DNA of 64,000 nucleotides from Minisyncoccota bacterium (lineage in GTDB: Bacteria > Patescibacteriota > Minisyncoccia > Phycocordibacterales > UBA9973): the NCBI GenBank assembly GCA_041659785.1, contig JBAZXO010000001.1, positions 19,795 through 83,794 of the forward strand, in the 5' to 3' direction. Positions within the stretch are counted from its first letter, which is position 1, and each line of letters begins with the position of its first letter. Under the pieces are notes generated by a model. It made no database searches. It was not told the origin of the DNA and saw only the letters and a program-made list of their open reading frames with translations. The position numbers and the translations under genes are program-made. Shown here piece by piece: positions 595-57,867 of the stretch.

Positions 595-1401
595 ATGAAA
601 AAAAAATTACTAAAATCTGTTTATAAGTTTTTATCAATATTTTCTTTTCTAGCTCTAATCCCAATTCTTACTTTTGCTGCAGGACCTTCATGTCCAGCTA
701 GTGGTATAGGTAAATTAATTTGCCAAATACAAAATATTCTTAATTCGATCATACCTGTCCTCGTATCACTTGGTGTAGTTTATTTTATATGGGGGGTGGT
801 TCAATATGTTATCGCTGACGGAGAAGAAGCAAAAAAGAAAGGCAAGGACATAATGATTTATGGAGTCATAGGTTTCACTGTCATTGTGGGCTTGTGGGGA
901 TTTGTGAATATACTTGTTAATACCTTTGGCCTTAGTGGAACAGTCGCTCCATCTCTTTCACCGGTAGCTGGTACGAGTTCTACTTGTACCATGGGAACCA
1001 ATTTTCAAGGTGTTTTGGGTTATGTAACTTGTATTATAAATAATTCTGTAATTCCTCTTATCTTTGCTTTGGCTACCGTGATGTTTATTTGGGGTGCTGT
1101 TAACTTTTTTATAATCAATGCTGACGAAGAAGCAAAGAGAGCTCAGGGCAAGCAGTTCATGATTTGGGGGATTATTGCTCTTGCTGTGATGCTTTCTGTT
1201 TGGGGGCTTGTGGGTATACTTAGTAGTACTTTTGGAGTAAATAGTTCAATTCTACCTCAAGTAAGACCTCCAGGCTCTAGCTCTTCGACGAGTGGAGGTC
1301 CTACAGATACAGGTGGAGGAAATACAGGGGGTGGTAATTTTTGCTATGATGAATTTGGGCAAATCACATCTACTATACCTATAAATGGAACTTGCCCCTA
1401 A
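595..1401 (+). CDS. tandem double-domain TrbC/VirB2-like pilin protein (two pilin modules fused, G/S/T-rich C-terminal tail)
   Basis: Signal peptide, then two internal repeats: IPVLVSLGVVYFIWGVVQYVIADGEEAKKKGKDIMIYGVIGFTVIVGLWGFVNILVNTFG and IPLIFALATVMFIWGAVNFFIINADEEAKRAQGKQFMIWGIIALAVMLSVWGLVGILSSTFG. Confidence 0.6.
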   Translation: MKKKLLKSVYKFLSIFSFLALIPILTFAAGPSCPASGIGKLICQIQNILNSIIPVLVSLGVVYFIWGVVQYVIADGEEAKKKGKDIMIYGVIGFTVIVGLWGFVNILVNTFGLSGTVAPSLSPVAGTSSTCTMGTNFQGVLGYVTCIINNSVIPLIFALATVMFIWGAVNFFIINADEEAKRAQGKQFMIWGIIALAVMLSVWGLVGILSSTFGVNSSILPQVRPPGSSSSTSGGPTDTGGGNTGGGNFCYDEFGQITSTIPINGTCP

Positions 1402-1452
1402 AATTTGTAAGATGTATAATTAAAAGATATTATTAGTATTATAAGGTCGCGT

Positions 1453-1515
1453 TTCCGCCAAAGGCGGATAAAATTATTAGAAGATTATTATTAGCTTGCC
1501 CGTCCTTTGGCGGGG
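1453..1515. repeat. two GC-rich mini-palindromes (ccgccaaaggcgg at 1456-1468; cttgcccgtcctttggcgggg at 1494-1515) immediately upstream of ATG 1523
   Basis: Both are read directly. The second is near-identical to copies in grpE (33126-33147) and pepN (55987-56008). The first resembles 30787-30808. Confidence 0.7.
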
Positions 1516-1522
1516 AAAAAAT

Positions 1523-1912
1523 ATGAAAAAGAAATTAATTGTGTTGTCAGGTTTTGCTTTGAGTTTAGCTCCGGTTGCTGCATTCGCACAAGTTAGTGCT
1601 GTAAGTGGGAACAGTTGCCCTCCTGGTTTAGCAGTTACAGATTTGCCAAGTTTGTTGTGTAAAATTGGCTCACTTCTTAATGCTGTCGTTCCTGTTTTAA
1701 TTGCTTTGGGTGTAGTTTATTTCGTATGGGGAGTTATCACTTATGTTATATCAAGTGATGAGGAAGCAAAGAAAGCTGGTAGAGATAGAATAATCTACGG
1801 TATCATTGGCTTGGCTGTCATTATTGCTATGTGGGGACTTGTAGGTATTTTGACTAAAACATTCAACGTAAGTAACTCTGGTACAATTACTCTACCAACA
1901 TTGAATCAATAG
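1523..1912 (+). CDS. TrbC/VirB2-like pilin paralog (the ORF track starts at TTG 1496; ATG 1523 is the likely true start)
   Basis: MKKKLIVLSGFALSLAPVAAFA signal peptide. Conserved VPVLIALGVVYFVWGVITYVISSDEEAKKAGRDRIIYGIIGLAVIIAMWGLVGIL block. Confidence 0.6.
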   Translation: MKKKLIVLSGFALSLAPVAAFAQVSAVSGNSCPPGLAVTDLPSLLCKIGSLLNAVVPVLIALGVVYFVWGVITYVISSDEEAKKAGRDRIIYGIIGLAVIIAMWGLVGILTKTFNVSNSGTITLPTLNQ

Positions 1913-1929
1913 ACTGTTAATTTTTTAAA

Positions 1930-2253
1930 ATGGATTTATTTTCTACAAAAATAGCTTTTGCTGCTTCGACTACCTTTGATGGATTCATCGGGAATGTTGA
2001 TACGATGATTGTAAATCCTCTTATTGATCTTTTGTTTGCTTTAGCAGTTGTGTATTTTCTTTATGGTGTATTTGAATTTCTTTCAAATCAAGAAAATGAA
2101 GAGAAAAAAACGACTGGTAAGCAACACATGATCTGGGGTATCGTCGGTATTACTATTATGTTAGGAGTCTGGACTATCCTAGGTATTGTTCTAAAAACTC
2201 TCAACATACAAGGTATAGATCCAGAAAATAGTAAAGTTCAACTTACTCCTTAA
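1930..2253 (+). CDS. TrbC/VirB2-like pilin paralog (shorter N-terminus)
   Basis: IDLLFALAVVYFLYGVFEFLSNQENEEKKTTGKQHMIWGIVGITIMLGVWTILGIV block homologous to the neighbours. Confidence 0.55.
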   Translation: MDLFSTKIAFAASTTFDGFIGNVDTMIVNPLIDLLFALAVVYFLYGVFEFLSNQENEEKKTTGKQHMIWGIVGITIMLGVWTILGIVLKTLNIQGIDPENSKVQLTP

Positions 2254-5608: not shown

Positions 5609-5668
5609 CCACCTAACCCTCTCCTTATGAAGGAGAGGGTGGCATCTTTAATAAGATGACGGGTGAGG
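5609..5668. repeat. GC-rich palindromic element, family C copy (ccctctcc-ttatgaa-ggagaggg stem plus gggtgagg tail), downstream of rbfA; possible terminator
   Basis: ccacctaaccctctccttatgaaggagagggtgg ... gacgggtgagg. Same architecture as the copies at 22171-22225, 24626-24664 and 25063-25099. Confidence 0.7.
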
Positions 5669-8035: not shown

Positions 8036-9334
8036 ATGCTCAAATCAAACTTGTCCCGCCGTGGCGGGGTAAAAGGATCAAATAAAATATATCTAGATTA
8101 TGCTGCGAGTGTAGAAGCGAATCCTAGTTCGATACATTCATTTGGCGTAGATGCAAAAATAAAACTTCAAAATGCGCGAAAAGAAGTAGCGAGTGTTTTA
8201 GGCTCTAGACCTGAAGAAATAATTTTTACGAGCGGTGGCACAGAAAGCAACAACCTTGCGATACAAGGAGTTGTTTGGTCAATTATTGAAATGCACACAT
8301 ATTCGCCTGTTGGCGAATTGCTCTGCTCGGCTCGTCAGCCCGCGCAAGGCATTTCAAAAACTACCAAACAACTCCTTCCACACATTATAACCACAAACAT
8401 AGAACATCCCTCAGTACTTGAGACTTTTAAATTATTAGAAAAAAGAAAACTCGCACAAATTTCTATAGTAGAAGTTGAAGCAAATGGGATAGTGGATCCA
8501 AAGAAAATAAAAAAAGAAATAAAGGAAAACACAATACTTGTTTCGGTTATGTATGCAAATAATGAAATAGGCACGATTCAGCCAATTCGTGAGATAGCAA
8601 AAGAGATTAGGCATTTTAAGAAAATAAAGGAAATCAATTTTTTCTCAGGTCCTCGGAAAAAATCCCCAGACCGTTCAAAAAAATTATTCCCTTCATTTTC
8701 TTTCCCGTTATTCCACACTGATGCAGTGCAAGCAGTTAATTATTTAGACCTTAATGTAGAAAGGCTCGGTGTGGATTTGCTTTCATTATCTGGCTCAAAA
8801 ATTGAGGGAGGAGGCAAAGTAGGAGTTCTTTATAAAAGAAAAATAGTTAAACTTGCAAATGTATATGGTGGAGGGGATCAAGAAATGGGATTACGTCCAG
8901 GGACAGAAAATTTATCAGAAATTTTGAAATTTTCTAGCGCATTAAAATTAGCGCAAGATATTAAAGAAAAAGAAAGTAAACGATTAACAAAACTTCGTGA
9001 TTATTTTTTTAGAGCCGTAGCGGGTAAGGCAATAATTAACGGTGATCTAAAAAATAGATTACCAAATAATGTGAATATAACGTTTCCAAAAATTCCAAGC
9101 GACCTTTTGGTTATTGAACTTTCTGCGAAAGGTATCATGGCATCTTCGAAAAGCGCTTGCAAAAGTTCCAGCTCAGAAGGTTCATATGTCATAAAAGCAA
9201 TACACCCAGAGATAGATAGAGAGATAGGCGGACTTCGTTTTTCGATGGGCAGAAAGACTACAAAGAAAGATATCGACTATACAATTAAAGTTTTATCTCA
9301 TATTTTGACAAAACTAAAAAAATGGTATGATTAG
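8036..9334 (+). CDS. cysteine desulfurase / class-V aminotransferase (IscS/NifS-like) with lineage-specific insertions
   Basis: IYLDYAAS N-terminus, ..TTNIEHPSVLE.., the PLP-lysine motif SLSGSKI, GLRPGTEN. A GC-rich mini-palindrome sits at codons 5-12 (8049-8069). Confidence 0.8.
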   Translation: MLKSNLSRRGGVKGSNKIYLDYAASVEANPSSIHSFGVDAKIKLQNARKEVASVLGSRPEEIIFTSGGTESNNLAIQGVVWSIIEMHTYSPVGELLCSARQPAQGISKTTKQLLPHIITTNIEHPSVLETFKLLEKRKLAQISIVEVEANGIVDPKKIKKEIKENTILVSVMYANNEIGTIQPIREIAKEIRHFKKIKEINFFSGPRKKSPDRSKKLFPSFSFPLFHTDAVQAVNYLDLNVERLGVDLLSLSGSKIEGGGKVGVLYKRKIVKLANVYGGGDQEMGLRPGTENLSEILKFSSALKLAQDIKEKESKRLTKLRDYFFRAVAGKAIINGDLKNRLPNNVNITFPKIPSDLLVIELSAKGIMASSKSACKSSSSEGSYVIKAIHPEIDREIGGLRFSMGRKTTKKDIDYTIKVLSHILTKLKKWYD

Positions 9335-17146: not shown

Positions 17147-17167
17147 CCCACGCCACGGCGGGGCAAG
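17147..17167. repeat. family A mini-palindrome (reverse orientation) between the typA stop and the next start codon
   Basis: cccacgccacggcggggcaag, then aaaattt, then ATG at 17175. Confidence 0.7.
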
Positions 17168-18221: not shown

Positions 18222-18279
18222 TCCCCCTTATCAGGGGGACTTCTAATACCACGTATTTTCTCTCCCCTGACAAGGGGAG
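18222..18279. repeat. two family B GC palindromes (tcccccttatcaggggga; ctcccctgacaaggggag) in the intergenic spacer
   Basis: Read directly; each has 6-7 bp GC arms. Confidence 0.7.
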
Positions 18280-21225: not shown

Positions 21226-22470
21226 ATGAAGAAGAAAGTTGTTTTTGTCGGTATATCAGGAGGCGTAGATAGCGCTGTTTCAGCCGCAATGCTTAAAAAG
21301 CAGGGTTTTGACGTGGTGGGAGTTTTTATTAAAACTTGGCATCCAGATTTTCTAGAGTGTAATGAAGAAGATGAGCGTCGTGATGCTATGCGTGTGGCAG
21401 CTTTTTTAGATATTCCTTTTCTTACTTTTGATTTTGAAGATGTTTATAAAAAAGAAGTAGCTGACTATATGATAAGTGAATATAAGCTGGGGCGAACACC
21501 AAATCCAGATGTGATGTGCAACAAGGAAGTGAAGTTCGGCGCATTTCTTAAAAAAGCTCTTTCAATGGGTGCAGACTTTGTGGCGACTGGACATTATGCG
21601 GAGAATGGCGAGGTAAAAGTTGATTTTTTGAGTGGTGACGTTGCGAAGCAGGATATTCCTGAAAAAAAACAATTTTTACATCGCCAGCAAGACAAAACAA
21701 ATCATGCTTTTCTCAACCTGCCTGCTAAAGCAACGTCGGTATTCGAAAAACATAATTTGTTTTGTCTTAAAAAAGGTGTAGATTCATCCAAAGATCAAAG
21801 TTATTTTTTATGGACACTTAGACAAGAACAATTGAAGAAAATTTTATTTCCAATAGGGCATCTCAAAAAGACAGAAGTAAGAAAACTTGCTAAGAAATTT
21901 AGTCTTCCTGTAGCAGAGAAAAAGGATAGTCAAGGTATATGTTTTTTAGGAGCAGTAGATTTGAAAGATTTTTTGAAGCACTATATTAAAGTAAAAAAAG
22001 GAAAAGTTGAGAATGAAAAAGGGGAAGTAATTGGGCATCATGATGGGGCAGTTTTTTATACTTTAGGGGAAAGGCATGGTTTTACAATCACACAAAAAAC
22101 ACCGAAAGATGGTGCATATTACATAGTGGGTAAAGATATAAATAAAAATATTTTATATGTGTCACAAAATCCTCTCCCCAACCCCTCTCCATTAGTAACT
22201 AATGGAGAGGGGCGAAGGGGTGAGGCAATTAAAATTATTAATACAAATTGGATTTCAGAAGTTCCAGAAATTCACCCCGCCGATGGCGGGGCAAGTAAAA
22301 ACTATACTGCGCAGATTCGTTACCATAGTGAATTTTTGCCTTGCAAAATTAAAGTTCTTTCTAAGAATAAAGCTGAAATAATTTTTACAAAAACAATCTT
22401 GGTTGCTTCTGGCCAATCCATCGTGGTCTACGATGGTGATATTTGCTTGGGTGGTGGAGTAGTTGTATAA
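21226..22470 (+). CDS. mnmA: tRNA-specific 2-thiouridylase MnmA, carrying lineage-specific in-frame insertions
   Basis: VFVGISGGVDSAVSAAML PP-loop; ..ATGHYA..; KDQSYFLW. 414 aa against a typical ~360. Confidence 0.85.
   Translation: MKKKVVFVGISGGVDSAVSAAMLKKQGFDVVGVFIKTWHPDFLECNEEDERRDAMRVAAFLDIPFLTFDFEDVYKKEVADYMISEYKLGRTPNPDVMCNKEVKFGAFLKKALSMGADFVATGHYAENGEVKVDFLSGDVAKQDIPEKKQFLHRQQDKTNHAFLNLPAKATSVFEKHNLFCLKKGVDSSKDQSYFLWTLRQEQLKKILFPIGHLKKTEVRKLAKKFSLPVAEKKDSQGICFLGAVDLKDFLKHYIKVKKGKVENEKGEVIGHHDGAVFYTLGERHGFTITQKTPKDGAYYIVGKDINKNILYVSQNPLPNPSPLVTNGEGRRGEAIKIINTNWISEVPEIHPADGGASKNYTAQIRYHSEFLPCKIKVLSKNKAEIIFTKTILVASGQSIVVYDGDICLGGGVVV
22171..22295. repeat. two different GC palindromic elements inserted in-frame in mnmA: family C at 22171-22225 and family A at 22275-22295
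   Basis: cccctctccattagt-a-actaatggagagggg is a perfect 15-bp inverted repeat, followed by gaaggggtgagg. Then ccccgccgatggcggggcaag. They encode NPSPLVTNGEGRRGEA and HPADGGASK. Confidence 0.8.
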
Positions 22471-22948: not shown

Positions 22949-24596
22949 AATTAGATCAAAATTTCTAAAATTTTTTGAAAATCGAGGACATAAAATAATT
23001 CCTTCTTCTTCGTTGATACCCAATGACCCTTCAGTGCTTTTCACAACAGCTGGAATGCAGCAGTTTAAACCTTATTATACCAATCCACAAAATGCTGATA
23101 AAGATTTTGGTAATAGAAATATTACAACAGCTCAGAAATGTATTCGTACCGGTGACATAGAAGAAGTCGGTGATGCTACGCATCTGACTTTTTTTGAAAT
23201 GCTTGGGAACTTTTCTTTTGGTGGCTATGGTAGACGTGAGGCTATTACTTATGCATATGATTTTATTGTTAAAGAATTAGGTTTGGAAATTTCTTATGTA
23301 ACTGTTTATAAAGGTGAGGGGATAGTTCCCAAGGATGATGAATCGCGCGCTGTTTGGGAAGAGTTAGGAGTGAAGGATATTCGTTTAGATGGTCATGATG
23401 TTTTTTGGGGGCCGACAGGAGACTCTGGGCCATGCGGACCAACAACAGAGATTTATTGCAAAAATGCAGATGGGGTTGATGTAGAAATTTGGAATATTGT
23501 TTTTAATGAATATTTTTGTGACAATTCTCGTGAAAAATTAGATAAAGGACAAGCTAATCTAAAAAAATTAGATGTTTTAGGCATAGATACAGGTATGGGG
23601 TTAGAACGCTTGCTTGCAACTGTTCAGAAAAGGAAAAATGTTTACGAAACAGATGTTTTTAATAATGAACAAACAAAAGAAGAAAGAATAGTTGCAGATC
23701 ATATAAAAGCGTCCCTTTTCATGATTTCAGATGGAGTAGTTCCATCAAATACTGGAGCTGGATATGTATTACGAAGATTAATAAGACGAGCAGTTAGATT
23801 TTCTAAACAGCCTCTGTCACAAGAAATAGAAAAAATAAAAAAAATTTACGAAGGAGTTTATGTTCTTGATGATAAGGGAGAAATAGAAAATGAAGAAAAA
23901 AAGTTTAGACATACGCTTGAGCATGGATTAAAAGAATTTGAAAAGGGGATAGATCCATTCGTTTTGGCTACTACTTATGGTTTTCCAATAGAACTTACTC
24001 TTGAGTTAGCAAAAGAAAAAGGACAGACGATTGACCTAGAAGAATTTCATAAAAAGATGGCAGAACATCAGAAATTATCGCAGACTTCATCCGCCGGTAT
24101 GTTTAAGGGTGGGCTTGCAAATCATAATGAAAAAACAATCAGACTTCACACTGCACACCATTTATTGCTTGCTGGACTTCAGGCAGTTGTAGATAAAAAT
24201 ATAAAACAACGAGGAAGTAACATCACCGAAGAGCGTTTACGTATGGATTTCTTGTGTGATCATAAATTAACTGATGAAGAAAAACAAAAAGTGGAAATCT
24301 GGGTCAATGAAAAAATTTCTGAAGGTTTAAATGTTGTTCGCAAAGAGATGCCCTTGGTTGAGGCAGAAAAGCTCGGCGCAGAAATGGAATTTGGTGCTAA
24401 ATATCCAGATATCGTATCTTTATATTTTATAGAAGAACCCGCCAAGGACGGGTCAGGTAAAAATGTTAATGTAATATCTAAAGAATTTTGTGGTGGACCA
24501 CATGTAAATAACACTAAAGAATTGGGTAAATTTAAAATTCAAAAAGAAGAAGCTGTAGCTGCTGGCATTAGACGCATCAAGGCAGTACTGGAATAA
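22935..24596 (+). CDS. alaS: alanyl-tRNA synthetase, compact form (catalytic + editing HxxxH/CxxxH motifs; no long C-terminal extension)
   Basis: FTTAGMQQFKPYY, HLTFFEMLGNFSFGGY, GPCGPTTEIY, editing-site HTAHHLL and CGGPHV. Only 553 aa. Confidence 0.8.
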   Translation: MESNEIRSKFLKFFENRGHKIIPSSSLIPNDPSVLFTTAGMQQFKPYYTNPQNADKDFGNRNITTAQKCIRTGDIEEVGDATHLTFFEMLGNFSFGGYGRREAITYAYDFIVKELGLEISYVTVYKGEGIVPKDDESRAVWEELGVKDIRLDGHDVFWGPTGDSGPCGPTTEIYCKNADGVDVEIWNIVFNEYFCDNSREKLDKGQANLKKLDVLGIDTGMGLERLLATVQKRKNVYETDVFNNEQTKEERIVADHIKASLFMISDGVVPSNTGAGYVLRRLIRRAVRFSKQPLSQEIEKIKKIYEGVYVLDDKGEIENEEKKFRHTLEHGLKEFEKGIDPFVLATTYGFPIELTLELAKEKGQTIDLEEFHKKMAEHQKLSQTSSAGMFKGGLANHNEKTIRLHTAHHLLLAGLQAVVDKNIKQRGSNITEERLRMDFLCDHKLTDEEKQKVEIWVNEKISEGLNVVRKEMPLVEAEKLGAEMEFGAKYPDIVSLYFIEEPAKDGSGKNVNVISKEFCGGPHVNNTKELGKFKIQKEEAVAAGIRRIKAVLE

Positions 24597-25145: not shown

Positions 25146-25161
25146 TGGGGGGGGGTTATAA
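25146..25161. promoter_or_regulatory. G9 homopolymer abutting a TATAAT -10 box upstream of a surface-protein gene (candidate slipped-strand phase-variation site)
   Basis: ctggggggggg ttataat at 25146-25161; ATG at 25197. Confidence 0.5.
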
Positions 25162-25196
25162 TTAAAAGAGTAATTTATTAATTTAATTTTTTACAT

Positions 25197-30786: not shown

Positions 30787-30808
30787 CTTTTCCCGCCAGG
30801 GGCGGATA
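30787..30808. repeat. GC mini-palindrome (tcccgcc-aggg-gcgga, then taaata) 13 nt upstream of the rpoA ATG
   Basis: cttttcccgccaggggcggata resembles 1453-1470 (tttccgccaaaggcggata). Confidence 0.65.
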
Positions 30809-32586: not shown

Positions 32587-32625
32587 TAATACTTGCCCCG
32601 CCATGGCGGAGTGAAGATAAAGAAA

Positions 32626-33101: not shown

Positions 33102-33740
33102 ATGGTAGATAAAGAAGAAAAGAAACTTGCCCCGTCCAAAGGCGGGGATAATGAAATTCCTACAGAGGGAGATACTTCCGAGGTTCTTGAATTTGAGTTC
33201 AACGAAGACGGGGAAGAAGATTTAAAGAAAACTCTAAAGAAATTTAGAGCGGACATAAAAGAACTCAAGAAAGAAAACTACGAGCTTAACGCCACAAGTA
33301 TTGAGTATCTTACTGGCTGGCAGAAAGAGCGAGCAGAATTCGCAAATTATAGAAAACAAGAAGATGAAAGAAAAGCAATCTTTTCCGAAGCGATGCGTGA
33401 GAGAATACTTACTCGTTTTTTGACCGTCTCTGATAGCTTCAACATGGCTTTCGCAAACAAAGAGGCTTGGGAAAAAGTCGATGATAATTGGCGTAAAGGT
33501 GTGGAATATATTTATGCTCAGATGAATGGAATATTTGAAGAATATGGAGTGAAACCCGTAGGTGAAGTAGGTGAGAGTTTTGACCCCAATATTCATCAAT
33601 CTGTCGATGTTGTAGAAACAGACAAAAAAGAACTAGAACACAAGGTGGCAACTGTGATACAAAAAGGCTATAAATTAGGCGAGCGCGTCATGCGTCCAGC
33701 TAGGGTAAATGTGTACGAGTTCAAAGAAAAAGTAGTATAA
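33102..33740 (+). CDS. grpE: nucleotide exchange factor GrpE (the N-terminal tail contains an in-frame family A palindrome)
   Basis: C-terminal ..KVATVIQKGYKLGERVMRPARVNV..; the element at 33126-33147 encodes KKLAPSKGGDNE. Confidence 0.85.
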   Translation: MVDKEEKKLAPSKGGDNEIPTEGDTSEVLEFEFNEDGEEDLKKTLKKFRADIKELKKENYELNATSIEYLTGWQKERAEFANYRKQEDERKAIFSEAMRERILTRFLTVSDSFNMAFANKEAWEKVDDNWRKGVEYIYAQMNGIFEEYGVKPVGEVGESFDPNIHQSVDVVETDKKELEHKVATVIQKGYKLGERVMRPARVNVYEFKEKVV

Positions 33741-36809: not shown

Positions 36810-36874
36810 TTGCTTTTGTCTACGGGGAGGGGTTATAATTAAAAGGTTAATTTATCAGTTTAATTTTTTAATGT

Positions 36875-37930: not shown

Positions 37931-40072
37931 ATGGACTTGCCAGAAATACCTATAAATAAAGATGTTACCTATCTGGGTCTTACTACTTTTCGTGACAAAA
38001 ATCAGCTCTTCGGCATAAAGCGCAAGGACAGACGCCAGCATGTTTATATTCTCGGAAAGTCAGGTACGGGTAAATCTGTGCTCATGTTCAACATGATTAT
38101 TCAGAACATCCAGAATGGCGAAGGTGTCTGCGTAGTTGACCCGCACGGAGAGCTCGTAGAAGGAGTCTTGTCGGCTATTCCACCGGAACGTATTAAAGAT
38201 GTAGTTTATTTCAACCCTGCTGATGCCGATCACCATATTGGTTTCAACGTTTTAGAATTAATTGATCCTCAATACAAACATCTCGTGGCTTCAGGGCTCA
38301 TGGGTATTTTCACTAAAATTTGGGCGAATGCATGGAGTGCCCGAATGGAATATATTTTAAACAATTGTATTTTAGCTTTGCTCGATACTCCAGGTACGAC
38401 ACTGCTCGGCATTCCTAGAATGCTCGTCGATAAAGATTATCGCCAGAAAATAATTGCGAATTTAAAAGACCCAGTTATTAAGGCTTTCTGGATTCACGAG
38501 TATGAAGCTTGGCAAGATAAATTTAGAAATGAAGCGATCGCTCCGATTCAAAACAAAGTCGGGCAATTTCTCTCTACATCCATCATCCGCAATGTCGTCG
38601 GTCAATCTTTAAGTACTATAAATATTTTCGACATCATGAATGATGGGAAGATTTTCCTCGTAAACGTTTCGAAAGGGCGCATCGGTGAAGATAACTCTGG
38701 CCTCCTAGGAGGAATGATCATTACCAAAATTCAGCTCGCTGCGATGGAGCGTGTTCGTATTCCGGAAGATCATCGTAAAGACTTTTACCTATATGTCGAC
38801 GAATTCCAGAATTTCGTGACGGACGCTTTTGCAGGTATTTTGTCTGAGGCTAGAAAATACAGATTGAACCTTACTGTTGCCCACCAATACACTGCCCAGC
38901 TCGTCGTGGACAAGAGTTCTGCCGTGCGAGATGCTGTCTTTGGAAACGTGGGTACGATGATTGTCTTTCGTGTTGGCTCTGATGATGCAGACTTCTTGGA
39001 AAAAGAATTTGATCCAGAATTTACTCCTTCGGACATTGTTAATTTGCCGAATTATAAAATTTATTTGAAATTAATGATAGATGGAGTTACGTCTAGACCT
39101 TTTTCTGCGAAGACACTTCCACCTATGGTTAAGTCCGGTGATAAAAAAGTAGAAGAAGCAGTTATCAAATCTTCTCGTGAACTTTATTGTAGACCCAAGG
39201 AATTAGTAGAAAGAGAAATTAATGACTGGAGCGGAATGTCACTTGGGAATTATAGTGAATCAGGAGGGGGAGCGGGTATGGAGAAATTCCCAGTTATCTG
39301 TTCACTTTGTAAACTAGAAAAGACTGTACCTTTCAAGCCAGAGCCAGGCAGAGCTGTTTATTGTAAGGAATGTATTGCAAAAATAAAATCCGGAGAGGTA
39401 AAGGTAGAGAAAAAAGGACAAGATCAAATAAATTACGATGAATCTAAATTTTTTAAACCGTTAGCTGATTTAGGTATAGAATTTCAACCAAAGAATGTAA
39501 AAGTTGAAGAAGAAAACAGATATCCTGAGAGAGTAGAGAAACATACTTCAGCACCAACAAAACCTTCTTCTGTGCCAAAACCATATATTTCTGCAAATAA
39601 ACCCTCCTCTTCGGCGGGCAGGCCAGGAATTATGGGGGCAATTAAAAAAGTTTTTGTTCCCACTCCAAAGGTAAACCAAAATAAAGCTGAGGCTCCTAAA
39701 AAAATAGATAATTCAGCACTTAGGGAAGTTTTAAATAAAACTTTACATAGTGAACAGGCGAGCCCGGTGATTCCAACTCCAGCACCAGTCAAGACTCCTG
39801 TGCCAGAGCCTGTTTCTCTTGATTCCTTAAAAGATAAAATAAAAGAAGAAGATAAAAAACTTGCCCGTCCATCTGGTGGAAATTTTTCATCATACAATGA
39901 TCGTTCTGCTGGCGCAGATGAGATGAATAAATTGAAAAATTTGATTTCAGAAAAAATTGAAACTAAAAAAGAAGAAGTAGCTCCAGCTCCAGCTCCAACA
40001 CCAATTCCGATACCTCAAAAACCAGCAACAAAAGAAGTACCTGAAGATGTTTTAAGAAAAGTTTTAGAATAA
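37931..40072 (+). CDS. VirD4/TraD/TraG-family type IV coupling-protein-like P-loop ATPase with a C-terminal CxxC..CxxC zinc ribbon and a P/K/A-rich low-complexity tail
   Basis: Walker A YILGKSGTGKS, VVDPHGE, Walker B FYLYVDEFQNF, ARKYRLNLTVAHQYTAQL and FGNVGTMIVFRVG (TraG-D_C-like). CSLCKLEK...CKECI ribbon. Confidence 0.6.
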   Translation: MDLPEIPINKDVTYLGLTTFRDKNQLFGIKRKDRRQHVYILGKSGTGKSVLMFNMIIQNIQNGEGVCVVDPHGELVEGVLSAIPPERIKDVVYFNPADADHHIGFNVLELIDPQYKHLVASGLMGIFTKIWANAWSARMEYILNNCILALLDTPGTTLLGIPRMLVDKDYRQKIIANLKDPVIKAFWIHEYEAWQDKFRNEAIAPIQNKVGQFLSTSIIRNVVGQSLSTINIFDIMNDGKIFLVNVSKGRIGEDNSGLLGGMIITKIQLAAMERVRIPEDHRKDFYLYVDEFQNFVTDAFAGILSEARKYRLNLTVAHQYTAQLVVDKSSAVRDAVFGNVGTMIVFRVGSDDADFLEKEFDPEFTPSDIVNLPNYKIYLKLMIDGVTSRPFSAKTLPPMVKSGDKKVEEAVIKSSRELYCRPKELVEREINDWSGMSLGNYSESGGGAGMEKFPVICSLCKLEKTVPFKPEPGRAVYCKECIAKIKSGEVKVEKKGQDQINYDESKFFKPLADLGIEFQPKNVKVEEENRYPERVEKHTSAPTKPSSVPKPYISANKPSSSAGRPGIMGAIKKVFVPTPKVNQNKAEAPKKIDNSALREVLNKTLHSEQASPVIPTPAPVKTPVPEPVSLDSLKDKIKEEDKKLARPSGGNFSSYNDRSAGADEMNKLKNLISEKIETKKEEVAPAPAPTPIPIPQKPATKEVPEDVLRKVLE

Positions 40073-42429: not shown

Positions 42430-42450
42430 CCCGGACACCAGGTGTCCGGG
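42430..42450. repeat. perfect palindrome cccggacacc-a-ggtgtccggg, followed by tggggaaaaattt and ATG 42464
   Basis: Read directly. Same layout (GC hairpin, then G-run, A-run, ATG) as 1494-1522. Confidence 0.7.
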
Positions 42451-43972: not shown

Positions 43973-45409
43973 TTAAATCTTAGAAATCTTTTGCCCCATG
44001 TTTGTATCCTTAACTTCATAACCCAGAGAATTTATTTTTTCTCGAAGCTCATCGGACTTTTTAAAATCTTTATCCTTGCGAGCTTGTTCGCGTTCTTCGG
44101 CTAGCTTTTTTACTTCTTCAGGAATTACGTCTTCCTTTAAGTGTTCGAAGCCTAACCCTAACACTTTATCGAAGTCTAAAATTGTAGCTTTCTTGTCGGC
44201 GTCTGACATGTTTTCATCTTTAAAAACATCCCACAATAATGCTAAAGCCCTAGGGGTGTCTAGGTCGTCTTCTATGTATTCTTTAAACTTATTTTGGTAT
44301 TCCTTATGTACATGGCCCACTTGCCCCGTCCTTGGCGGGGACTCATTTGCCCCCGCCTCAGGCGGGACAAGAAGCCCTAAATAAAGGCCATAAAGGCGTT
44401 TTAAGGCTGTTTCAGCGCCCTCGAGTGCTTCCCATACAAAGTTGACTTTAGTACGATAGCTAGCCATTAAAAGCCAAAAACGATAGGTTATAGGGTTTAT
44501 GTTTTTTTCAATTAAACTTTCCAATCTTAAAAAATTATTTGCTGATTTAGACATTTTCTCGTTACCTGTATCAACAAATTCACTATGCATCCAGAATTTA
44601 ACAAAAGGCTTTTTACCAGTAGCGCATTCTGATTGAGCTATTTCATTTGTGTGATGTGTAGGTATAAGATCAATGCCCCCTGTGTGAATATCAAATTGTT
44701 CACCAAGAAATTTTAGACCCATAGCAGAACATTCAATGTGCCATCCCGGAAAACCAATTCCGAAAGGGGATTCAAAACCAATTTTATTATCAGTCTTCCA
44801 CAATGCGAAATCTTCAGGATTTATTTTTTCAGAATTTTCTGTTACCCTAGCTCCTTCTTTGTTCCAGTCCCTTTTACCACTCCAAAGTGCTCCATAGTCA
44901 GGCATTTTAGAAACATTGAAATATATTCCATCACTTGTTTTATATGTGTATCCTTTTTCTGTTAGTTTTTGGATTAATTCAATGTCTTCTTTAACATAAT
45001 CGCTTGCAAAATATAAACCTGAAGGCATTTCGATATTAAGGGCTTGTAAATCTTTTTTAAAACTTTCAGTATAAAATTCTGCAAGCTCACGCATGTTTTT
45101 TAGCGTTAATTCTTTTCCTTCTCGCAAAAGTCCCTTGGTCATTTTATCTTCACCAGAATCAGCATCACTTGAAAGATGCCCGATGTCAGTGATGTTCATG
45201 ACTTGCTTTACTATAAATCCTTCATATTGAAGAGTGCGATGTACCAAGTCGGCAAAAAAGAAAGAACGCAAATTACCTATATGGGTATAGTTATAAACTG
45301 TTGGGCCACAGGTATACATTCGTACCTCCTTCGGATCTATGGGGGTAAAAATGTCTTTTTCTTTAGTTAGAGTGTTGTAAAATTTTAAAGCCATTTTATT
45401 TAAATTCAC
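43973..45409 (-). CDS. cysS: cysteinyl-tRNA synthetase carrying an in-frame double GC-palindrome insertion
   Basis: MYTCGPTVYNYTHIGNLR (HIGH), KMSKS, zinc-binding Cys/His residues. The insertion encodes ..VPPEAGANESPPRTGQVGH. Confidence 0.9.
   Translation of the reverse strand: MNLNKMALKFYNTLTKEKDIFTPIDPKEVRMYTCGPTVYNYTHIGNLRSFFFADLVHRTLQYEGFIVKQVMNITDIGHLSSDADSGEDKMTKGLLREGKELTLKNMRELAEFYTESFKKDLQALNIEMPSGLYFASDYVKEDIELIQKLTEKGYTYKTSDGIYFNVSKMPDYGALWSGKRDWNKEGARVTENSEKINPEDFALWKTDNKIGFESPFGIGFPGWHIECSAMGLKFLGEQFDIHTGGIDLIPTHHTNEIAQSECATGKKPFVKFWMHSEFVDTGNEKMSKSANNFLRLESLIEKNINPITYRFWLLMASYRTKVNFVWEALEGAETALKRLYGLYLGLLVPPEAGANESPPRTGQVGHVHKEYQNKFKEYIEDDLDTPRALALLWDVFKDENMSDADKKATILDFDKVLGLGFEHLKEDVIPEEVKKLAEEREQARKDKDFKKSDELREKINSLGYEVKDTNMGQKISKI
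44320..44371. repeat. composite of two adjacent family A palindromes inside cysS
   Basis: cttgccccgtccttggcgggg + actcatttg + cccccgcctcaggcgggacaag. The outer ends cttgcccc.../...gggacaag are themselves inverted. Confidence 0.75.
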
Positions 45410-55344: not shown

Positions 55345-57867
55345 TTAGTCAAGTAAAGTGGAAAGGAAACTGTGGATAACTTTTTTATCTCTTTTGAGCC
55401 AAGCGATATTGCCCTCTAGTCGTTCAATAATTTGTTCAATTGCGCGCTTGGCACCTGGGGCTTCGTGGTTGGCGAAGAATTTCTTGAAATTTTTTAGATG
55501 TTTTTCCTCGCTACTGCCAGAAATTGCTTTTACGGCTCTACCCAATGTGAGCCCTCCTTCACCATATCGTGATACAAGAGTCTTCCAATTCTTTTGAATA
55601 AAATTCCACCATATATCACGGCCATGTGGGTTAGCTCCGACACCTGAAAGAATGCCCACAGTGTCTTGGATGCGGACATTTTTAGACAATGCAAATTCAC
55701 AAGCCATTTTTAGAATCTTTGGATTAGAAAAATCTCCCAGGGCATTGCCTATGCGATTTTTCTCTTCATGCAGTGTTTCTTTTTTGTATTGTTTTATTAA
55801 TATGTTGTATTCTTTTATTCCACCATGAGTGGCTACTATCGAATATACAGCACCACGGATATCTGGAGATACTTGGTGGTTTTTTTGTATTTGTGAGAAT
55901 TTCTTTCTAGCTTCAGAAATTATTTTCTTGTCTCCAGAGACACCAGCGCGAGAAAGTGCAAGTGAACGAAGAAGTGTGTCTGCATGGGTTTCATTTTCCC
56001 CGCCTTTGGACGGGGCAAGCTTTTTATCCCAGCCGAGACGCAGAGCAACAGGGGAGAATAAATCTAATACAAGTTTATCCAAATTTTCTTTTGCGGGAGT
56101 TTTTGCTATAATCTGTCCTAGTCTAGAGAGGCCTGAAGCAATTTCAACCCAGACGGTATAATTATCTTCATTTTTAAAAGCCTTTAAAAATTCTAATGCA
56201 TCTGTGGTAGGTATTGTACCAGCTTCCGCTAAAGCGAAAAGATCTCGAACGATACCAAGCCTATCTCGAGGGGAGAGTAATTTTTTAGATACTGGTTCTA
56301 TGAGTTTTTCTAAAAGCTCTTTACTATATGCTGTTCTATAAAATCCTGTTTCACAAAAATTAATTTTTAGGTAGGCTTCGCTTGAAACTACTTTTATTGG
56401 CACCTGCCAAATAGTTTTATCTTTTGCTAGAGCTTTAGACTTTGGACTTGCAAAAAACCTTTCTTGAGTTAAGGAAAGTTTATTTTTTACCATACTTGCT
56501 TTGATAACAGGGTAGCCTGGTTTAGATGTCCAATTATGCATCATTTTGGCGACTGATTTTTTAGAAACTTTTTCAAAAGCTCTCCAGAGGTCTAGTGTCT
56601 CTGTATTTTTATAGCTGTGTTTTTTTAAATAATAACGAAGTCCATCACGAAAATCTTTTTCTCCTAGGTAGTCTGCGAGCATTCGGATTATCGATGCTCC
56701 TTTTGAATAAGATACTTCGTCGAATATTTCTCCTATCTCATCTGGATGATGAACTTCCACTTCTATTGGGTGAGTACTCTTGAGTGCGTCGAGCCGCAGA
56801 GCTACACCAAGATCGCTCGTAGAGAATTGTGTCCAAATATCCCATTTTGGGAAAAGTTTATCTACTGCTAGATATTCTATATATGAAGCAAAACCTTCGT
56901 TCAGCCATAAATGTGTCCACCATTCCATCGTTACTAAATTACCGAACCATTGATGCGCTAGTTCATGTGCTACGACGAGTGCTACCCATTGTTTATTTGA
57001 TGAAGAAGAATAATTTTCATCTACCAAGAGTGCACTTTCTCTATAAGTTACGGCACCCCAATTCTCCATTGCACCTGAGGCAAAGTCTGGAATAGCTATC
57101 ATGTCTAGTCCTGGTAATGGGTAAACAATATCAAAATATTTTTCATAAAATTCGAGAGTTTTAACTGCGCATTCGAGAGCAAATTTTGCTTGATGTTTTT
57201 TACCAGGAGTTGTATACACCCGAACTTGTACACCTCTTTTTGTTTTAGATTCTAGGTATTCAAAATCACCAATAATGAATGCTAAAAGGTAAGTGGACAT
57301 TTTAGGCGTAGGGGAAAATTTAACAATTTCATATTGAGCTTCATGTTCCAATACAGATATGGGCAATGTGTTAGAAATAGCAGTTTTTCCTTTTGGAATG
57401 ACGAGAGACACATGGAAAACTGCTTTGTGTGCAGGCTCGTCGAAGCAGGGGAAAGCACGTCGTGCGTCCGTAGCTTCGAATTGTGTTGTCGCCATATGAT
57501 GCGTCTTACCATTTACTTGATATTGACTGCGATAAAAACCACGCATTTTATCATTTAATATTCCCTTAAAAACAAGGTTTAACCTTGTTTTTCTTACAGT
57601 GATTAATTGGGGAAATAAAAAAGTAGCTGTTTCTTGTTTTTTATTGTAAGTAATTTTTGCAAAAATTTTCTCTCCTCCCATCAATACATCTGCCGTATCT
57701 ATCTCAATTTCCTTTGAGTGTAGAGTTAGTGTTTTTGTATTTTTTAAAATTAAGAGATTTATTGTTTCAACACCACTAAAAGTAAAGTTCTCTAAATCTG
57801 GTTTCAGTTGGATATCATATTTTATGGGAGTAACATTTTTTGAAAGACGAACCTCTTTTTTTATCAT
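55345..57867 (-). CDS. pepN: M1-family aminopeptidase N carrying an in-frame family A palindrome
   Basis: GAMENWG; HELAHQWFGNLVTMEWWTHLWLNEGFASY (HExxH...E). The insertion encodes KKLAPSKGGENE. Confidence 0.9.
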   Translation of the reverse strand: MIKKEVRLSKNVTPIKYDIQLKPDLENFTFSGVETINLLILKNTKTLTLHSKEIEIDTADVLMGGEKIFAKITYNKKQETATFLFPQLITVRKTRLNLVFKGILNDKMRGFYRSQYQVNGKTHHMATTQFEATDARRAFPCFDEPAHKAVFHVSLVIPKGKTAISNTLPISVLEHEAQYEIVKFSPTPKMSTYLLAFIIGDFEYLESKTKRGVQVRVYTTPGKKHQAKFALECAVKTLEFYEKYFDIVYPLPGLDMIAIPDFASGAMENWGAVTYRESALLVDENYSSSSNKQWVALVVAHELAHQWFGNLVTMEWWTHLWLNEGFASYIEYLAVDKLFPKWDIWTQFSTSDLGVALRLDALKSTHPIEVEVHHPDEIGEIFDEVSYSKGASIIRMLADYLGEKDFRDGLRYYLKKHSYKNTETLDLWRAFEKVSKKSVAKMMHNWTSKPGYPVIKASMVKNKLSLTQERFFASPKSKALAKDKTIWQVPIKVVSSEAYLKINFCETGFYRTAYSKELLEKLIEPVSKKLLSPRDRLGIVRDLFALAEAGTIPTTDALEFLKAFKNEDNYTVWVEIASGLSRLGQIIAKTPAKENLDKLVLDLFSPVALRLGWDKKLAPSKGGENETHADTLLRSLALSRAGVSGDKKIISEARKKFSQIQKNHQVSPDIRGAVYSIVATHGGIKEYNILIKQYKKETLHEEKNRIGNALGDFSNPKILKMACEFALSKNVRIQDTVGILSGVGANPHGRDIWWNFIQKNWKTLVSRYGEGGLTLGRAVKAISGSSEEKHLKNFKKFFANHEAPGAKRAIEQIIERLEGNIAWLKRDKKVIHSFLSTLLD
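55987..56008. repeat. family A palindrome (reverse orientation) inside pepN, near-identical (with flanks, about 33 nt) to the grpE copy
   Basis: Reverse complement aagcttgccccgtccaaaggcggggaaaatgaa, against grpE aaacttgccccgtccaaaggcggggataatgaa. Confidence 0.8.

What the first reader, a model, noticed from the sequence alone, without database searches (positions are those of the whole stretch)
1494..1525. GC hairpins placed immediately before start codons at six sites: a possible translation-initiation or regulatory role
At six places a GC palindrome is followed within 4-20 nt by an A-rich tract and the ATG: 1494-1515 then ATG 1523; 17147-17167 then ATG 17175; 30790-30806 then ATG 30821; 32592-32609 then ATG 32626; 42430-42450 then ATG 42464. 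In addition 8049-8069 and 33126-33147 sit just inside the 5' ends of the desulfurase gene and grpE. None of these genes has an obvious SD. The hairpins are followed by A-runs, not U-runs, so they are not terminators for the upstream gene on this strand. Either the element prefers insertion at AT-rich gene starts, or it has been co-opted, for example as a standby site or structure-dependent initiation signal.
Basis: inference. Interest (0 to 1): 0.55.

Follow-up and report, generated by a model that had tools for sequence, protein, structure and literature searches.

The report
Tiny mobile GC hairpins, not start signals
The GC hairpins in front of start codons are copies of a 21-base palindromic repeat that has been inserted all over this ultra-small bacterial genome, including in frame inside essential genes, so their closeness to start codons is a side effect of very short gene spacers and not a translation signal.

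Summary
The hairpins are real and lie at the stated coordinates. They show no special placement before start codons. Twelve copies, plus one degenerate copy, form one oriented repeat family of about 21 nt: CTTG followed by an imperfect 7-bp GC stem, often with a bulged T, and a variable loop. None is expected by chance. The 42430 hairpin is a different 21-nt palindrome.

Seven of the 12 copies lie in frame inside genes (iscS-like, mnmA, alaS, grpE, cysS twice, M1 peptidase). Every site that could be compared with orthologous loci of other Nomurabacteria is empty in some or all relatives. Clean +21 nt insertions occur in mnmA (0 of 49 orthologs carry it), alaS and grpE. The rplM-rpsI copy split the old rpsI start codon. 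Within spacers the hairpins show no bias toward the ATG. Only 4 of 66 genes have a Shine-Dalgarno-like core, so the missing SD and the A-rich leaders are genome-wide.

Related genomes carry divergent RAYT-like Y1 transposase genes. Each one inspected is flanked by inverted 17-23 nt palindromes, and the same palindromes also occur inside genes elsewhere. The best reading is a REP-like mini-palindrome that inserts into AT-rich DNA. Mobilisation by a RAYT is inferred: no RAYT lies in the window and none was found flanked by this family. The behaviour resembles REP/RAYT elements and Rickettsia palindromic elements. I found no description of it in Patescibacteria.

The parts
1494..1515 (+). Family copy GCTTGCCCGTCCTTTGGCGGGG in the spacer between two T4SS-pilin-like genes, 7 nt before ATG 1523.
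   Evidence: Absent from the orthologous pilin spacer of L205.
1447..1468 (.). Weaker related hairpin TTTCCGCCAAAGGCGGATAAA in the same 121-nt spacer.
   Evidence: Absent from L205. Same type as the rpsD-rpoA hairpins of other species.
8049..8070 (+). Family copy ACTTGTCCCGCCGTGGCGGGGT inside the class-V aminotransferase (IscS/NifS-like) gene, codons 5-12.
   Evidence: ATG 8036 and its upstream sequence are conserved in L202 and L204, which lack the hairpin. The difference is net +2 aa, so it is not a clean indel.
17147..17167 (-). Family copy (minus strand CTTGCCCCGCCGTGGCGTGGG) filling 21 of the 28 nt between the typA stop and the ATG of a sigma-70-region-4/HARE-HTH gene. It abuts the stop codon.
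   Evidence: The spacer is 6 nt in L204 and 11 nt in L205 with no hairpin, and L203 has none. L202 has a different, longer hairpin plus TAAG at the same point.
22275..22295 (-). Family copy (minus strand CTTGCCCCGCCATCGGCGGGG) in frame in mnmA. It adds the 7 aa HPADGGA.
   Evidence: Precise +21 nt, absent from 49 of 49 orthologs including the closest relative L002.
24436..24456 (-). Family copy ACCCGCCAAGGACGGGTCAGG in frame in alaS. The 21 nt are inserted within a GAT codon.
   Evidence: Absent in L002 and about 50 others. An identical 21-mer sits at the same site in L054, and CCCCGCCAAGGACGGGGCAAG in L058. The insert is 21/21 identical to L054 while the flanks are 77% identical.
30790..30806 (.). 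Short hairpin CCCGCCAGGGGCGGA in the rpsD-rpoA spacer, 14 nt before ATG 30821.
   Evidence: Shared with L002. Across 81 species, 53 have no hairpin, 18 have one near the rpsD stop and 10 have one near the ATG. Spacers with a hairpin have median 65 nt against 48 nt without.
32592..32611 (+). Family copy CTTGCCCCGCCATGGCGGAG inserted into the ancestral rpsI start codon, in the 4-nt rplM-rpsI spacer. It creates an in-frame GTG at 32611.
   Evidence: L002 reads TAATATGGAT. The window reads TAATA|CTTGCCCCGCCATGGCGGAG|TGAAG. The spacer is 1-12 nt in most of about 70 orthologs.
33126..33147 (+). Family copy CTTGCCCCGTCCAAAGGCGGGG in frame in grpE, encoding LAPSKGG at codons 9-15.
   Evidence: +7 aa relative to L002 and others. 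L050 has a related element at the same place.
39860..39879 (+). Possible degenerate copy CTTGCCCGTCCATCTGGTGG inside ORF 37931-40072.
   Evidence: (D19). Not compared with orthologs.
44320..44371 (.). Inverted doublet of two family copies, CTTGCCCCGTCCTTGGCGGGG-ACTCA-TTTGCCCCCGCCTCAGGCGGGACAAG, in frame in cysS at codons 347-363. REPIN-like.
   Evidence: It folds as one 52-nt hairpin at -48.8 kcal/mol, z = -5.85. Its status as an insertion was not established: the alignment to a distant solved CysRS was uninformative.
55998..56019 (-). Family copy (minus strand CTTGCCCCGTCCAAAGGCGGGG, identical to the grpE copy at 33126-33147) in frame in the M1 aminopeptidase, encoding LAPSKGG at residues 617-623.
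   Evidence: Among 120 homologs it is present only here, with a decayed copy (CTTGCCCACCATGGCGGGG, LAHHGG) in the closest relative. In the AlphaFold model, residues 617-623 are exactly a pLDDT<50 loop between two confident helices.
42430..42450 (.). Different 21-nt perfect palindrome CCCGGACACCAGGTGTCCGGG in the dnaJ-downstream spacer. It is not a member of the CTTG family.
   Evidence: The orthologous spacer is 3 nt in L034 and 6 nt in L031 against 39 nt here.

Best explanation
The hairpins are copies of a REP-like miniature palindromic insertion element of a Candidatus Nomurabacteria (Paceibacterota, Patescibacteria) genome. The unit is about 21 nt. It consists of an asymmetric CTTG, an imperfect 7-bp GC-rich stem that often carries a bulged T in the CTTG-side arm, and a free 2-4 nt loop.

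Shown:
- Copies have been inserted as discrete 20-22 nt blocks, without an obvious target duplication, into AT-rich DNA.
- They persist where they do little harm. One such place is the very short spacers between co-directional genes, where any insert necessarily ends up within a few to about 15 nt of both the stop and the next start codon.
- The other is inside genes, when the length is a multiple of three. There the stop-free GC-rich palindrome is read through as a 7-aa Pro/Gly/Ala/Ser-rich segment; the one case that was modelled, the M1 aminopeptidase, places it in a low-confidence inter-helix loop.

Inferred:
- The copies are mobilised in trans as single-stranded DNA hairpins by a RAYT-type (IS200/IS605-like, HUH/Y1) transposase. 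Such a gene is common in this clade and is always flanked by its own 17-23 nt palindromes.
- Any effect on translation or mRNA stability of the neighbouring genes is incidental.
For: One oriented family, non-random. The CTTG and the T-bulge always sit on the same arm. Among 51 non-redundant low-GC copies the loops vary and the stems are conserved, and 35 are exactly 21 nt.

Precise insertions against empty orthologous sites:
- mnmA, +21 nt, 0 of 49 orthologs carry it.
- alaS, +21 nt within a GAT codon.
- grpE, +7 aa.
- M1 peptidase, +7 aa among 120 homologs.
- rplM-rpsI, where the copy split the start codon.
- typA-sigma, pilin and dnaJ spacers.
- rpsD-rpoA, where 53 of 81 species have no hairpin and spacers with a hairpin are 17 nt longer.

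Distribution in the window: 7 of 12 copies are in CDS, all in frame. Density is about 8-fold higher in the 7.8% of the window that is non-coding (binomial P = 0.0014).

No bias toward the ATG inside spacers. Both orientations occur relative to the mRNA. Genes without an SD and with AT-rich leaders are the genome norm.

The same family lies inside long ORFs of other low-GC contigs, with recurrent frames DPAxGGAS, SPPxAGQA and LAPPxAG.

Clade-wide pattern: 24% of 105 lineage-specific 5-14 aa inserts in 23 ortholog families carry a GC hairpin of at least 6 bp, against 4.8% of controls.

RAYT-like genes: PF01797, with the best NCBIfam hit being REP-associated tyrosine transposase, and 3357 homologs, many of them named Nomurabacteria or Paceibacterota. 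All loci inspected are flanked on both sides by short palindromes, in most cases visibly inverted copies. The same palindromes occur dispersed elsewhere, including in CDS (L019 mnmA, L043 672-aa ORF).

The cysS doublet folds as one REPIN-like hairpin. The peptidase insert maps to a low-confidence inter-helix loop.
Against: No RAYT gene is in the 64-kb window (tblastn), and none of the 11 RAYT-like loci inspected is flanked by the CTTG-CCCCGCC family. The transposase link for this particular family therefore rests on analogy.

The RAYT-like proteins score below NCBIfam's cutoff (30-69 bits against 80).

Copies are almost all singlets, whereas the REPIN model holds that doublets are the replicative unit and singlets are dead remnants (PMC3116915).

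There is no strand bias relative to the replication direction implied by the GC skew: about 6 copies against 5-7. An IS608-like lagging-strand mechanism might be expected to produce one.

The identical 21-mer at the same alaS site in three non-sister species needs either strong target specificity, recombination between species, or selection on the sequence.

Hairpins at the rpsD 3' end recur in 18 species with different stems. That could mean some intergenic copies are maintained for an RNA-level function.

The closest available relative is only 82.5% identical in DNA, so the timing of the insertions is coarse. Gene calls were simple ORF calls.
Confidence: 0.72

Rival explanations
1. First reader's reading. 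The hairpins have been co-opted as standby sites or structure-dependent translation-initiation signals for genes that lack a Shine-Dalgarno sequence.
For: Five hairpins do lie 7-16 nt upstream of an ATG with an unpaired A-rich stretch between them. The genome almost lacks SD motifs, so some other initiation cue must exist.
Against: About 60 other genes without an SD have no hairpin. The same genes in most relatives have none, and often have only 1-12 nt of spacer. The position inside the spacer is unconstrained and often abuts the stop codon. Both orientations occur. Seven of the 12 copies are inside genes. One copy destroyed the ancestral rpsI ATG.
Confidence: 0.05
2. The intergenic copies, whatever their origin, act at the RNA level between cistrons. 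They would serve as 3' stabilisers, processing sites or attenuators that set the relative expression of neighbouring genes, as REPs do in the E. coli malE-malF operon (recalled from memory, not checked here). This is a secondary exaptation and does not exclude the insertion-element origin.
For: Three copies sit 0-5 nt after the upstream stop codon. A hairpin recurs just after the rpsD stop in 18 of 81 species with different stem sequences but a retained hairpin. The alaS insert is better conserved than its flanks.
Against: Presence is patchy, with 53 of 81 species lacking any hairpin. Offsets from the stop vary from 3 to 20 nt. Orientation relative to the mRNA is mixed. Intragenic copies cannot have this role. 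No Rfam family matches. No expression data exist.
Confidence: 0.15
3. The repeats are not transposed by an enzyme. They spread by recombination or gene conversion between genomes, or by templated repair at breaks, possibly aided by natural competence. They might also serve a host DNA-level function such as a DNA-uptake sequence or a protein-binding site.
For: The identical 21-mer sits at the same alaS codon in non-sister species. The family occurs in many unrelated low-GC contigs. No cognate transposase was found for this family. A competence gene (PF03772) was seen in one related locus (L206).
Against: Uptake sequences accumulate by point substitution and are short non-palindromic words. Here the events are clean 21-nt indels of a hairpin with a variable loop. 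The density is modest at about 0.2 per kb. Recombination alone does not explain new sites in unrelated genes. RAYT-like genes with cognate flanking palindromes are abundant in the clade.
Confidence: 0.08

Closest known systems
REP / REPIN elements and their RAYT (REP-associated tyrosine transposase) genes of Enterobacteria and Pseudomonas (PMC3116915, PMC5581495)
   Same: A short imperfect palindrome with a conserved asymmetric tetranucleotide next to it. Many dispersed copies. Enrichment in non-coding DNA. One inverted doublet that folds as a single hairpin. In the same clade, single-copy Y1 transposase genes flanked on both sides by palindromes that also occur dispersed.
   Different: The unit is only about 21 nt. 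The flank is CTTG, not GTAG (the GTAG motif is from memory). Copies are almost all singlets, and singlets are seen as fresh precise insertions. More than half of the copies lie in frame inside essential genes. No cognate RAYT was found for this family. The clade's RAYT-like proteins fall below the NCBIfam cutoff.
Rickettsia palindromic elements (RPE; from memory: Ogata et al. 2000)
   Same: Palindromic repeats that insert in frame into protein-coding genes of a small AT-rich genome and are translated as extra peptide segments tolerated at the protein surface.
   Different: RPEs are about 100-150 bp and are restricted to Rickettsia. These elements are 21 nt, GC-rich, in another phylum, and show no sequence relationship. 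Longer RPE-like recurrent inserts do exist in the M1 peptidase of other Nomurabacteria.
GC clusters of yeast mitochondrial genomes (from memory)
   Same: GC-rich palindromic mini-elements scattered in a very AT-rich compact genome. They are optional between strains, are found near gene ends and occasionally in frame in a coding gene (var1), and their mechanism is unknown.
   Different: They occur in an organelle of a eukaryote, are 30-60 bp long, have reported target duplications, and have no associated Y1 transposase.
IS200/IS605-family (IS608) subterminal hairpins (from memory)
   Same: An imperfect DNA hairpin with an extrahelical T plus a nearby tetranucleotide is what a Y1 HUH transposase recognises on single-stranded DNA. 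Insertion occurs without target duplication.
   Different: Those are the ends of a 1-2 kb element carrying tnpA or tnpB and insert 3' of a fixed tetranucleotide with a strand bias. Here the whole element is one hairpin, with no fixed target and no strand bias.
Rho-independent terminators
   Same: A GC-rich stem-loop located after a stop codon.
   Different: No U-run follows. Both orientations occur. Copies lie inside genes. The window has separate canonical terminators with T-runs.

Membership tests
REP / REPIN-RAYT system | Short (about 20-40 nt) imperfect palindrome repeated many times in one genome | tested here: met
   12-13 copies in 64 kb against 0 expected. Stems of 5-7 bp with a bulge.
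REP / REPIN-RAYT system | Conserved asymmetric tetranucleotide adjoining the palindrome (GTAG in classical REPs) | tested here: inconclusive
   A conserved CTTG (CYTG) sits on one side, always on the arm with the T-bulge. The feature is analogous, but the sequence is different.
REP / REPIN-RAYT system | Extragenic location | tested here: not met
   Seven of 12 copies are inside ORFs in frame. Density is nevertheless about 8-fold higher in non-coding DNA.
REP / REPIN-RAYT system | Copies mostly arranged as inverted doublets (REPINs), the replicative unit (PMC3116915) | tested here: not met
   There is one doublet (cysS 44320-44371). All other copies are singlets, and singlets appear as precise 21-nt insertions.
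REP / REPIN-RAYT system | A single-copy RAYT gene in the same genome flanked by the same repeats (PMC5581495) | not testable with these tools
   Only 64 kb of this genome is available, and its contigs could not be fetched. There is no RAYT in the window. In relatives, RAYT-like genes are flanked by other palindrome families.
RAYT protein family (for the clade's Y1 transposases) | Matches the Y1_Tnp / REP-associated tyrosine transposase profiles above the curated cutoff | tested here: inconclusive
   Pfam PF01797 scores 46.7 bits against a cutoff of 23, so it is met. NCBIfam NF047646 is the only hit, but at 30-69 bits against a cutoff of 80.
Rickettsia palindromic elements | Palindromic repeat of about 100-150 bp inserted in frame in ORFs | tested here: not met
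   In-frame insertion is met. Size is 21 nt, so the size criterion is not met. Sequence relatedness was not tested.
Intrinsic terminator | GC stem-loop immediately followed by a U-run on the transcribed strand | tested here: not met
   The hairpins are followed by A-rich or mixed sequence. Canonical terminators occur elsewhere in the window.
Translation-initiation element (standby site / leader structure) | Conserved presence and spacing relative to the start codon of the same gene in relatives | tested here: not met
   The hairpin is absent or differently placed in most orthologous spacers. Spacing within spacers is unconstrained.
DNA uptake sequence | Short non-palindromic word at about 1 per kb that accumulates by point substitution in both coding and non-coding DNA | tested here: not met
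   The copies arise as clean 21-nt indels. They are palindromic with a variable loop. Density is about 0.2 per kb.
Known RNA families (Rfam 15) | Match at the gathering threshold | tested here: not met
   Only five tRNAs were found in the window.

The most novel reading that the evidence does not exclude
Patescibacteria of the Nomurabacteria group harbour a previously undescribed class of ultra-short (17-23 nt) REP-like hairpin elements. These are mobilised as singlets by a divergent RAYT-like HUH transposase lineage. They routinely insert in frame into essential genes (aminoacyl-tRNA synthetases, GrpE, DnaK, MnmA, ribosomal proteins), which makes them a steady source of small protein insertions in the smallest bacterial genomes. 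Because the insertions sit in conserved coding sequence, the filled and empty junctions are known to the nucleotide. That makes the still unresolved mechanism of REP dissemination directly testable.
Probability: 0.4. Interest if true: 0.75.

Novelty: new variant of a known kind. Interest (0 to 1): 0.6.

Why it matters
For the finding as given: it removes a tempting but unsupported idea, that hairpins replace the Shine-Dalgarno sequence in a genome without SD motifs. It also shows how a compact genome with 1-40 nt spacers makes any inserted repeat look 'placed' at a start codon.

Beyond that, REP-type elements are by definition extragenic, and their mode of spread is still unknown. Here a REP-like family is caught as clean 21-nt insertions in conserved genes, with orthologous empty sites in dozens of species and a widespread RAYT-like gene with cognate flanking palindromes in the same clade.

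If the link holds, it extends REP/RAYT biology to Patescibacteria. It would explain part of the many short lineage-specific insertions in their proteins. It also offers nucleotide-resolution junctions (no target duplication, hairpin plus CAAG as the inserted unit) for testing the mechanism.

It also matters for annotation. Start codons can be displaced, as for rpsI, and TTG or GTG codons inside the element can be miscalled as starts (ORFs 1496 and 32593).

Tried and rejected
- Terminators: rejected. No U-run follows, the orientation is mixed, copies lie inside genes, and separate canonical terminators exist.
- Known RNA families: none overlap.
- tRNA-derived origin: only the T-arm of tRNA-Cys resembles a GC hairpin, and it is unrelated.
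- Folding energy of single hairpins against shuffles is only modestly significant (z -0.3 to -3.4). Significance comes from family recurrence, not from energy.
- CTTG flank enrichment over all 395 GC hairpins of 81 loci: not enriched. The flank is specific to this family and is not a general property of GC hairpins.
- Fetching the window's own genome: the grpE and peptidase products are not on record for context look-up, and the genome is not among the GTDB representatives.
- Metagenome scan with the motif: most hits in GC-rich contigs are ordinary stable hairpins, terminators or other repeats. Only the 28 contigs with GC of 0.47 or less were informative.
- RAYT near the motif in L108 and L120 (GC 57-58%): the gene is not flanked by the motif, so no link.
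- Last look-ups for RAYT homologs close to L003's: these are flanked by TTACAAGGGTAACCCTTGTAA, not by the CTTG-CCCCGCC family.
- cysS doublet as an insertion: the alignment to a solved CysRS is too distant to decide.
- Literature: no paper on REP/RAYT, RPE-like or GC-hairpin insertions in Patescibacteria, CPR or Nomurabacteria.
Full report
**What is there**

The window is a 36.5% GC, 92% coding stretch of a Candidatus Nomurabacteria / Paceibacterota genome. This assignment rests on T4SS-pilin-like genes typical of Patescibacteria and on the names of the closest protein and DNA relatives.

When the copies are put in one orientation they form a single family. The consensus is CTTG-CCCCG(T)CC-loop-GGCGGGG, usually 21-22 nt.
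- The CTTG lies on one side only.
- In many copies a T is bulged in the arm next to the CTTG.
- The stem is conserved and the 2-4 nt loop is free. In 51 non-redundant low-GC copies the loops are nearly all different, and 35 copies are exactly 21 nt.

Members lie at 1494, 8049, 32592, 33126 and 44320 on the plus strand, and at 17147, 22275, 24436 and 55998 on the minus strand. The partner of an inverted doublet lies at 44346. Weaker relatives lie at 1447 and 30790, and a possible degenerate copy at 39860. The strict motif occurs 4 times against 0.00 in 100 shuffles. The hairpin at 42430 is a different 21-nt perfect palindrome.

**Half of the copies are inside genes**

Seven of the 12 copies lie within ORFs with clear Pfam identities, and all are in frame:
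- the class-V aminotransferase, codons 5-12;
- mnmA, encoding HPADGGA;
- alaS, encoding EPAKDGS;
- grpE, encoding LAPSKGG;
- cysS, with two copies at codons 347-363;
- the M1 aminopeptidase, encoding LAPSKGG from the same 22-mer as in grpE.

A GC-rich palindrome has no stop codon in any frame outside its loop. A copy of length 3n can therefore be read through in either orientation.

**They are insertions**

I fetched 80 orthologous loci around rpoA, four around the typA-sigma junction, and the closest relative's peptidase locus.
- **mnmA:** the copy is a clean +21 nt that none of 49 orthologs has.
- **alaS:** 21 nt sit inside a GAT codon. They are missing from about 50 orthologs, including the closest relative. 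The identical 21-mer is at the same codon in L054. In L058 the insert is CCCCGCCAAGGACGGGGCAAG, the exact reverse complement of the window copy at 44320. The insert is 21/21 identical to L054, while the flanks are 77% identical.
- **grpE:** the copy is +7 aa relative to L002.
- **M1 peptidase:** the insert is unique among 120 homologs apart from a decayed copy in the closest relative. In an AlphaFold model it is exactly the pLDDT<50 stretch 617-623, between two confident helices.
- **rplM-rpsI spacer:** this is 1-12 nt in most of about 70 species. The closest relative reads TAATATGGAT and the window reads TAATA|CTTGCCCCGCCATGGCGGAG|TGAAG. The element therefore landed inside the old rpsI start codon and left an in-frame GTG.
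- **typA-sigma spacer:** it is 6 and 11 nt and empty in two relatives. It is empty in a third, and holds a different, longer hairpin at the same point in a fourth.
- **Pilin spacer:** the copy in L205 lacks both hairpins.
- **dnaJ-downstream spacer:** it is 3-6 nt elsewhere against 39 nt here.
- **rpsD-rpoA spacer:** 53 of 81 species have no GC hairpin, 18 have one near the stop and 10 have one near the ATG. Spacers with a hairpin have a median of 65 nt against 48 nt without (P = 3e-7).

In the 21 kb shared with L002 (82.5% nucleotide identity) the window has five or six copies and L002 has one.

**Why they look placed at start codons**

The median spacer between co-directional genes is 31 nt. 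A 21-nt insert in such a spacer must end within a few to about 15 nt of both the stop and the start. The relative positions inside the spacers are 0.0, 0.26, 0.28, 0.45, 0.70 and 0.93. Three copies sit 0-5 nt after the stop codon.

Only 4 of 66 genes have an SD-like core, and the 12 nt before starts average 80% AT. So 'no SD, A-rich' is not special to these genes. The elements occur in both orientations relative to the mRNA.

The window has ordinary terminators with T-runs elsewhere, and no Rfam family overlaps the hairpins. The copies are about 8 times denser in non-coding DNA (5 copies in 4988 nt against 7 in about 59,000 nt; P = 0.0014). That is what selection against most coding insertions would produce.

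**A clade-wide habit**

The same family lies inside ORFs of other Nomurabacteria. It also lies inside ORFs in about 19 of 28 low-GC metagenome contigs that carry the motif, with recurring frames DPAxGGAS, SPPxAGQA and LAPPxAG.

Across 23 ortholog families in the 80 loci, 24% of 105 lineage-specific 5-14 aa insertions carry a GC hairpin of at least 6 bp, against 4.8% of control segments. The M1 peptidase alignment shows dozens of short G/P/R/S/A-rich lineage-specific inserts. At one hotspot it also shows longer recurrent ones.

**Likely mechanism (inferred)**

One of the fetched loci happened to carry a Y1_Tnp gene (PF01797, E = 4e-12). Homologs are in L003 and L036 and in 3357 database proteins, many of them named Nomurabacteria, Paceibacterota or Minisyncoccia, and one annotated by JGI as RayT. 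NCBIfam's only hit is 'REP-associated tyrosine transposase', but below its cutoff.

Every locus inspected (L003, L036, L205, L206-L213) has the gene flanked on both sides by short palindromes of 17-23 nt, in most cases visibly inverted copies:
- ACAAGGGTWACCCTTGT
- GTTAGGTCTTGCCTAAC
- GTCAAGGACSGTCCTTGAC
- ACGGAGGCGTTGCCTCCGT
- doublets of CATAGGAGTTTCCTATG

Two RAYT-like proteins that are 80% identical keep the same flanking palindrome. These palindromes also occur dispersed in other genomes, including inside mnmA of L019 and a 672-aa ORF of L043. This is the REP-RAYT architecture (PMC5581495, PMC3116915). The cysS doublet in the window folds as one 52-nt hairpin (-48.8 kcal/mol, z = -5.85), like a REPIN.

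From this I infer that the CTTG family is mobilised in trans as a single-stranded DNA hairpin by such an enzyme.

This step is not shown.
- No RAYT lies in the window.
- None was found flanked by this family.
- Copies are singlets rather than doublets.
- There is no strand bias relative to the GC skew.

**Comparison with known systems and verdict**

The family works like REPs in several respects: a short imperfect palindrome with an asymmetric flank, many copies, and RAYT-like genes in the clade. It works like Rickettsia palindromic elements in being inserted in frame and translated. It fails two defining REP features, extragenic location and the doublet as the unit. It is five times shorter than an RPE. 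The cognate-RAYT criterion could not be tested. I therefore file it as a new variant of a known kind, not as a member.

I found no paper describing REP/RAYT or RPE-like elements in Patescibacteria. That is absence from the searchable library, not proof of novelty.

The 'initiation signal' reading is not supported. The 'inserting element' alternative is supported, with the correction that gene starts are not the target.

**Limits**

- Gene models are simple ORF calls.
- Only 64 kb of the genome was available.
- The nearest relative is a different species.
- Part of the 21-nt length mode comes from the search pattern.
- There are no expression data, so an incidental or secondarily acquired RNA-level effect of individual intergenic copies remains possible.

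Noticed in passing
L011, L018, L037, L045, L052, L053, L060 (partial in L054): rplM-rpsI spacer; not present in the window: A conserved element of about 75 nt lies between rplM and rpsI in several other Nomurabacteria. It consists of a hairpin (ACTTGTCCCGT...ACGGGR) whose loop (GTACTAAATTTT) is complementary to the stretch just before the rpsI ATG. This gives a pseudoknot-like arrangement that could occlude the start, making it a candidate ribosomal-protein leader.
   Followed up: no
window 5617-5639, 22184-22210, 24638-24663, 25063-25088; also 6621-6641, 18223-18279, 47513-47535: A second set of GC palindromes: CCCCTCTCC-loop-GGAGAGGGG, often followed by GAAGGGGTGAGG, and a related CTCCCCC...GGGGGAG. 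The copy at 22184 lies in frame inside mnmA, at a spot that is hypervariable in length among orthologs.
   Followed up: partly
L205:707-1330(-), L003:4414-5076(+), L036:826-1344(-), L206-L213: RAYT-like Y1 transposase genes (about 210 aa). Each is flanked on both sides by short 17-23 nt palindromes, in most cases visibly inverted copies. There are 3357 homologs at E<=1e-10, many from Nomurabacteria or Paceibacterota. Proteins that are 80% identical keep the same flanking palindrome.
   Followed up: yes
M1 aminopeptidase homologs P0002-P0120, alignment columns about 690-860: An insertion hotspot carries longer recurrent peptides shared by non-identical sets of species: FTQKHFLSRLSQAVEPRMS, SFLAQLFIKQSISQSFGSELLGYPPAQG and INFLRGLASDGEPISG. 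These look like larger RPE-like elements. The DNA of the one in L001 is partly palindromic.
   Followed up: partly
window, all 66 ORF starts: The genome is almost free of Shine-Dalgarno motifs (4 of 66 genes), and positions -12 to -1 average 80% AT. Many neighbouring genes are separated by fewer than 40 nt.
   Followed up: partly
window 24436-24456 versus L054 and L058: The 21-nt alaS insert is 21/21 identical in the window and L054, while the surrounding coding sequence is 77% identical. The three carriers are not each other's closest relatives by RpoA. This suggests a targeted site, exchange between species, or selection on the hairpin.
   Followed up: partly
window 25147-25380 and 36824-37058: Two paralogous genes (25197-26282 and 36875-37861) share a conserved upstream block, GGGG(G/A)GGGGTTATAATTAAAAG..., that contains a TATAAT-like box (repeats D2 and D14).
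   Followed up: no
window 1496 and 32593 (TTG), 32611 (GTG): The TTG inside the element's CTTG is in frame with the downstream gene at two sites. ORF callers would therefore extend those genes into the repeat. At rpsI the insertion created an in-frame GTG where the ancestral ATG was.
   Followed up: partly
L203 (ENA contig_58118): typA, mnmA and alaS are each split into two or three ORFs in this contig. This suggests a frameshift-rich assembly rather than real pseudogenes.
   Followed up: no
window 595-2253: A cluster of three T4SS-pilin-like (PF18895) genes. The spacer before the second gene holds two hairpin insertions.
   Followed up: no
metagenome loci with GC 0.62-0.68 (for example L091, L092, L121, L124, L148, L150, L152, L162, L196, L197): More than 20 GC-rich contigs share a conserved context around CTTGCCCCGCCTCCGGCGGGGCGG, preceded by ...GCCTCGCTAGxGGCAGCGT... 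This looks like one conserved non-coding element of an unrelated high-GC group. It was not identified.
   Followed up: no
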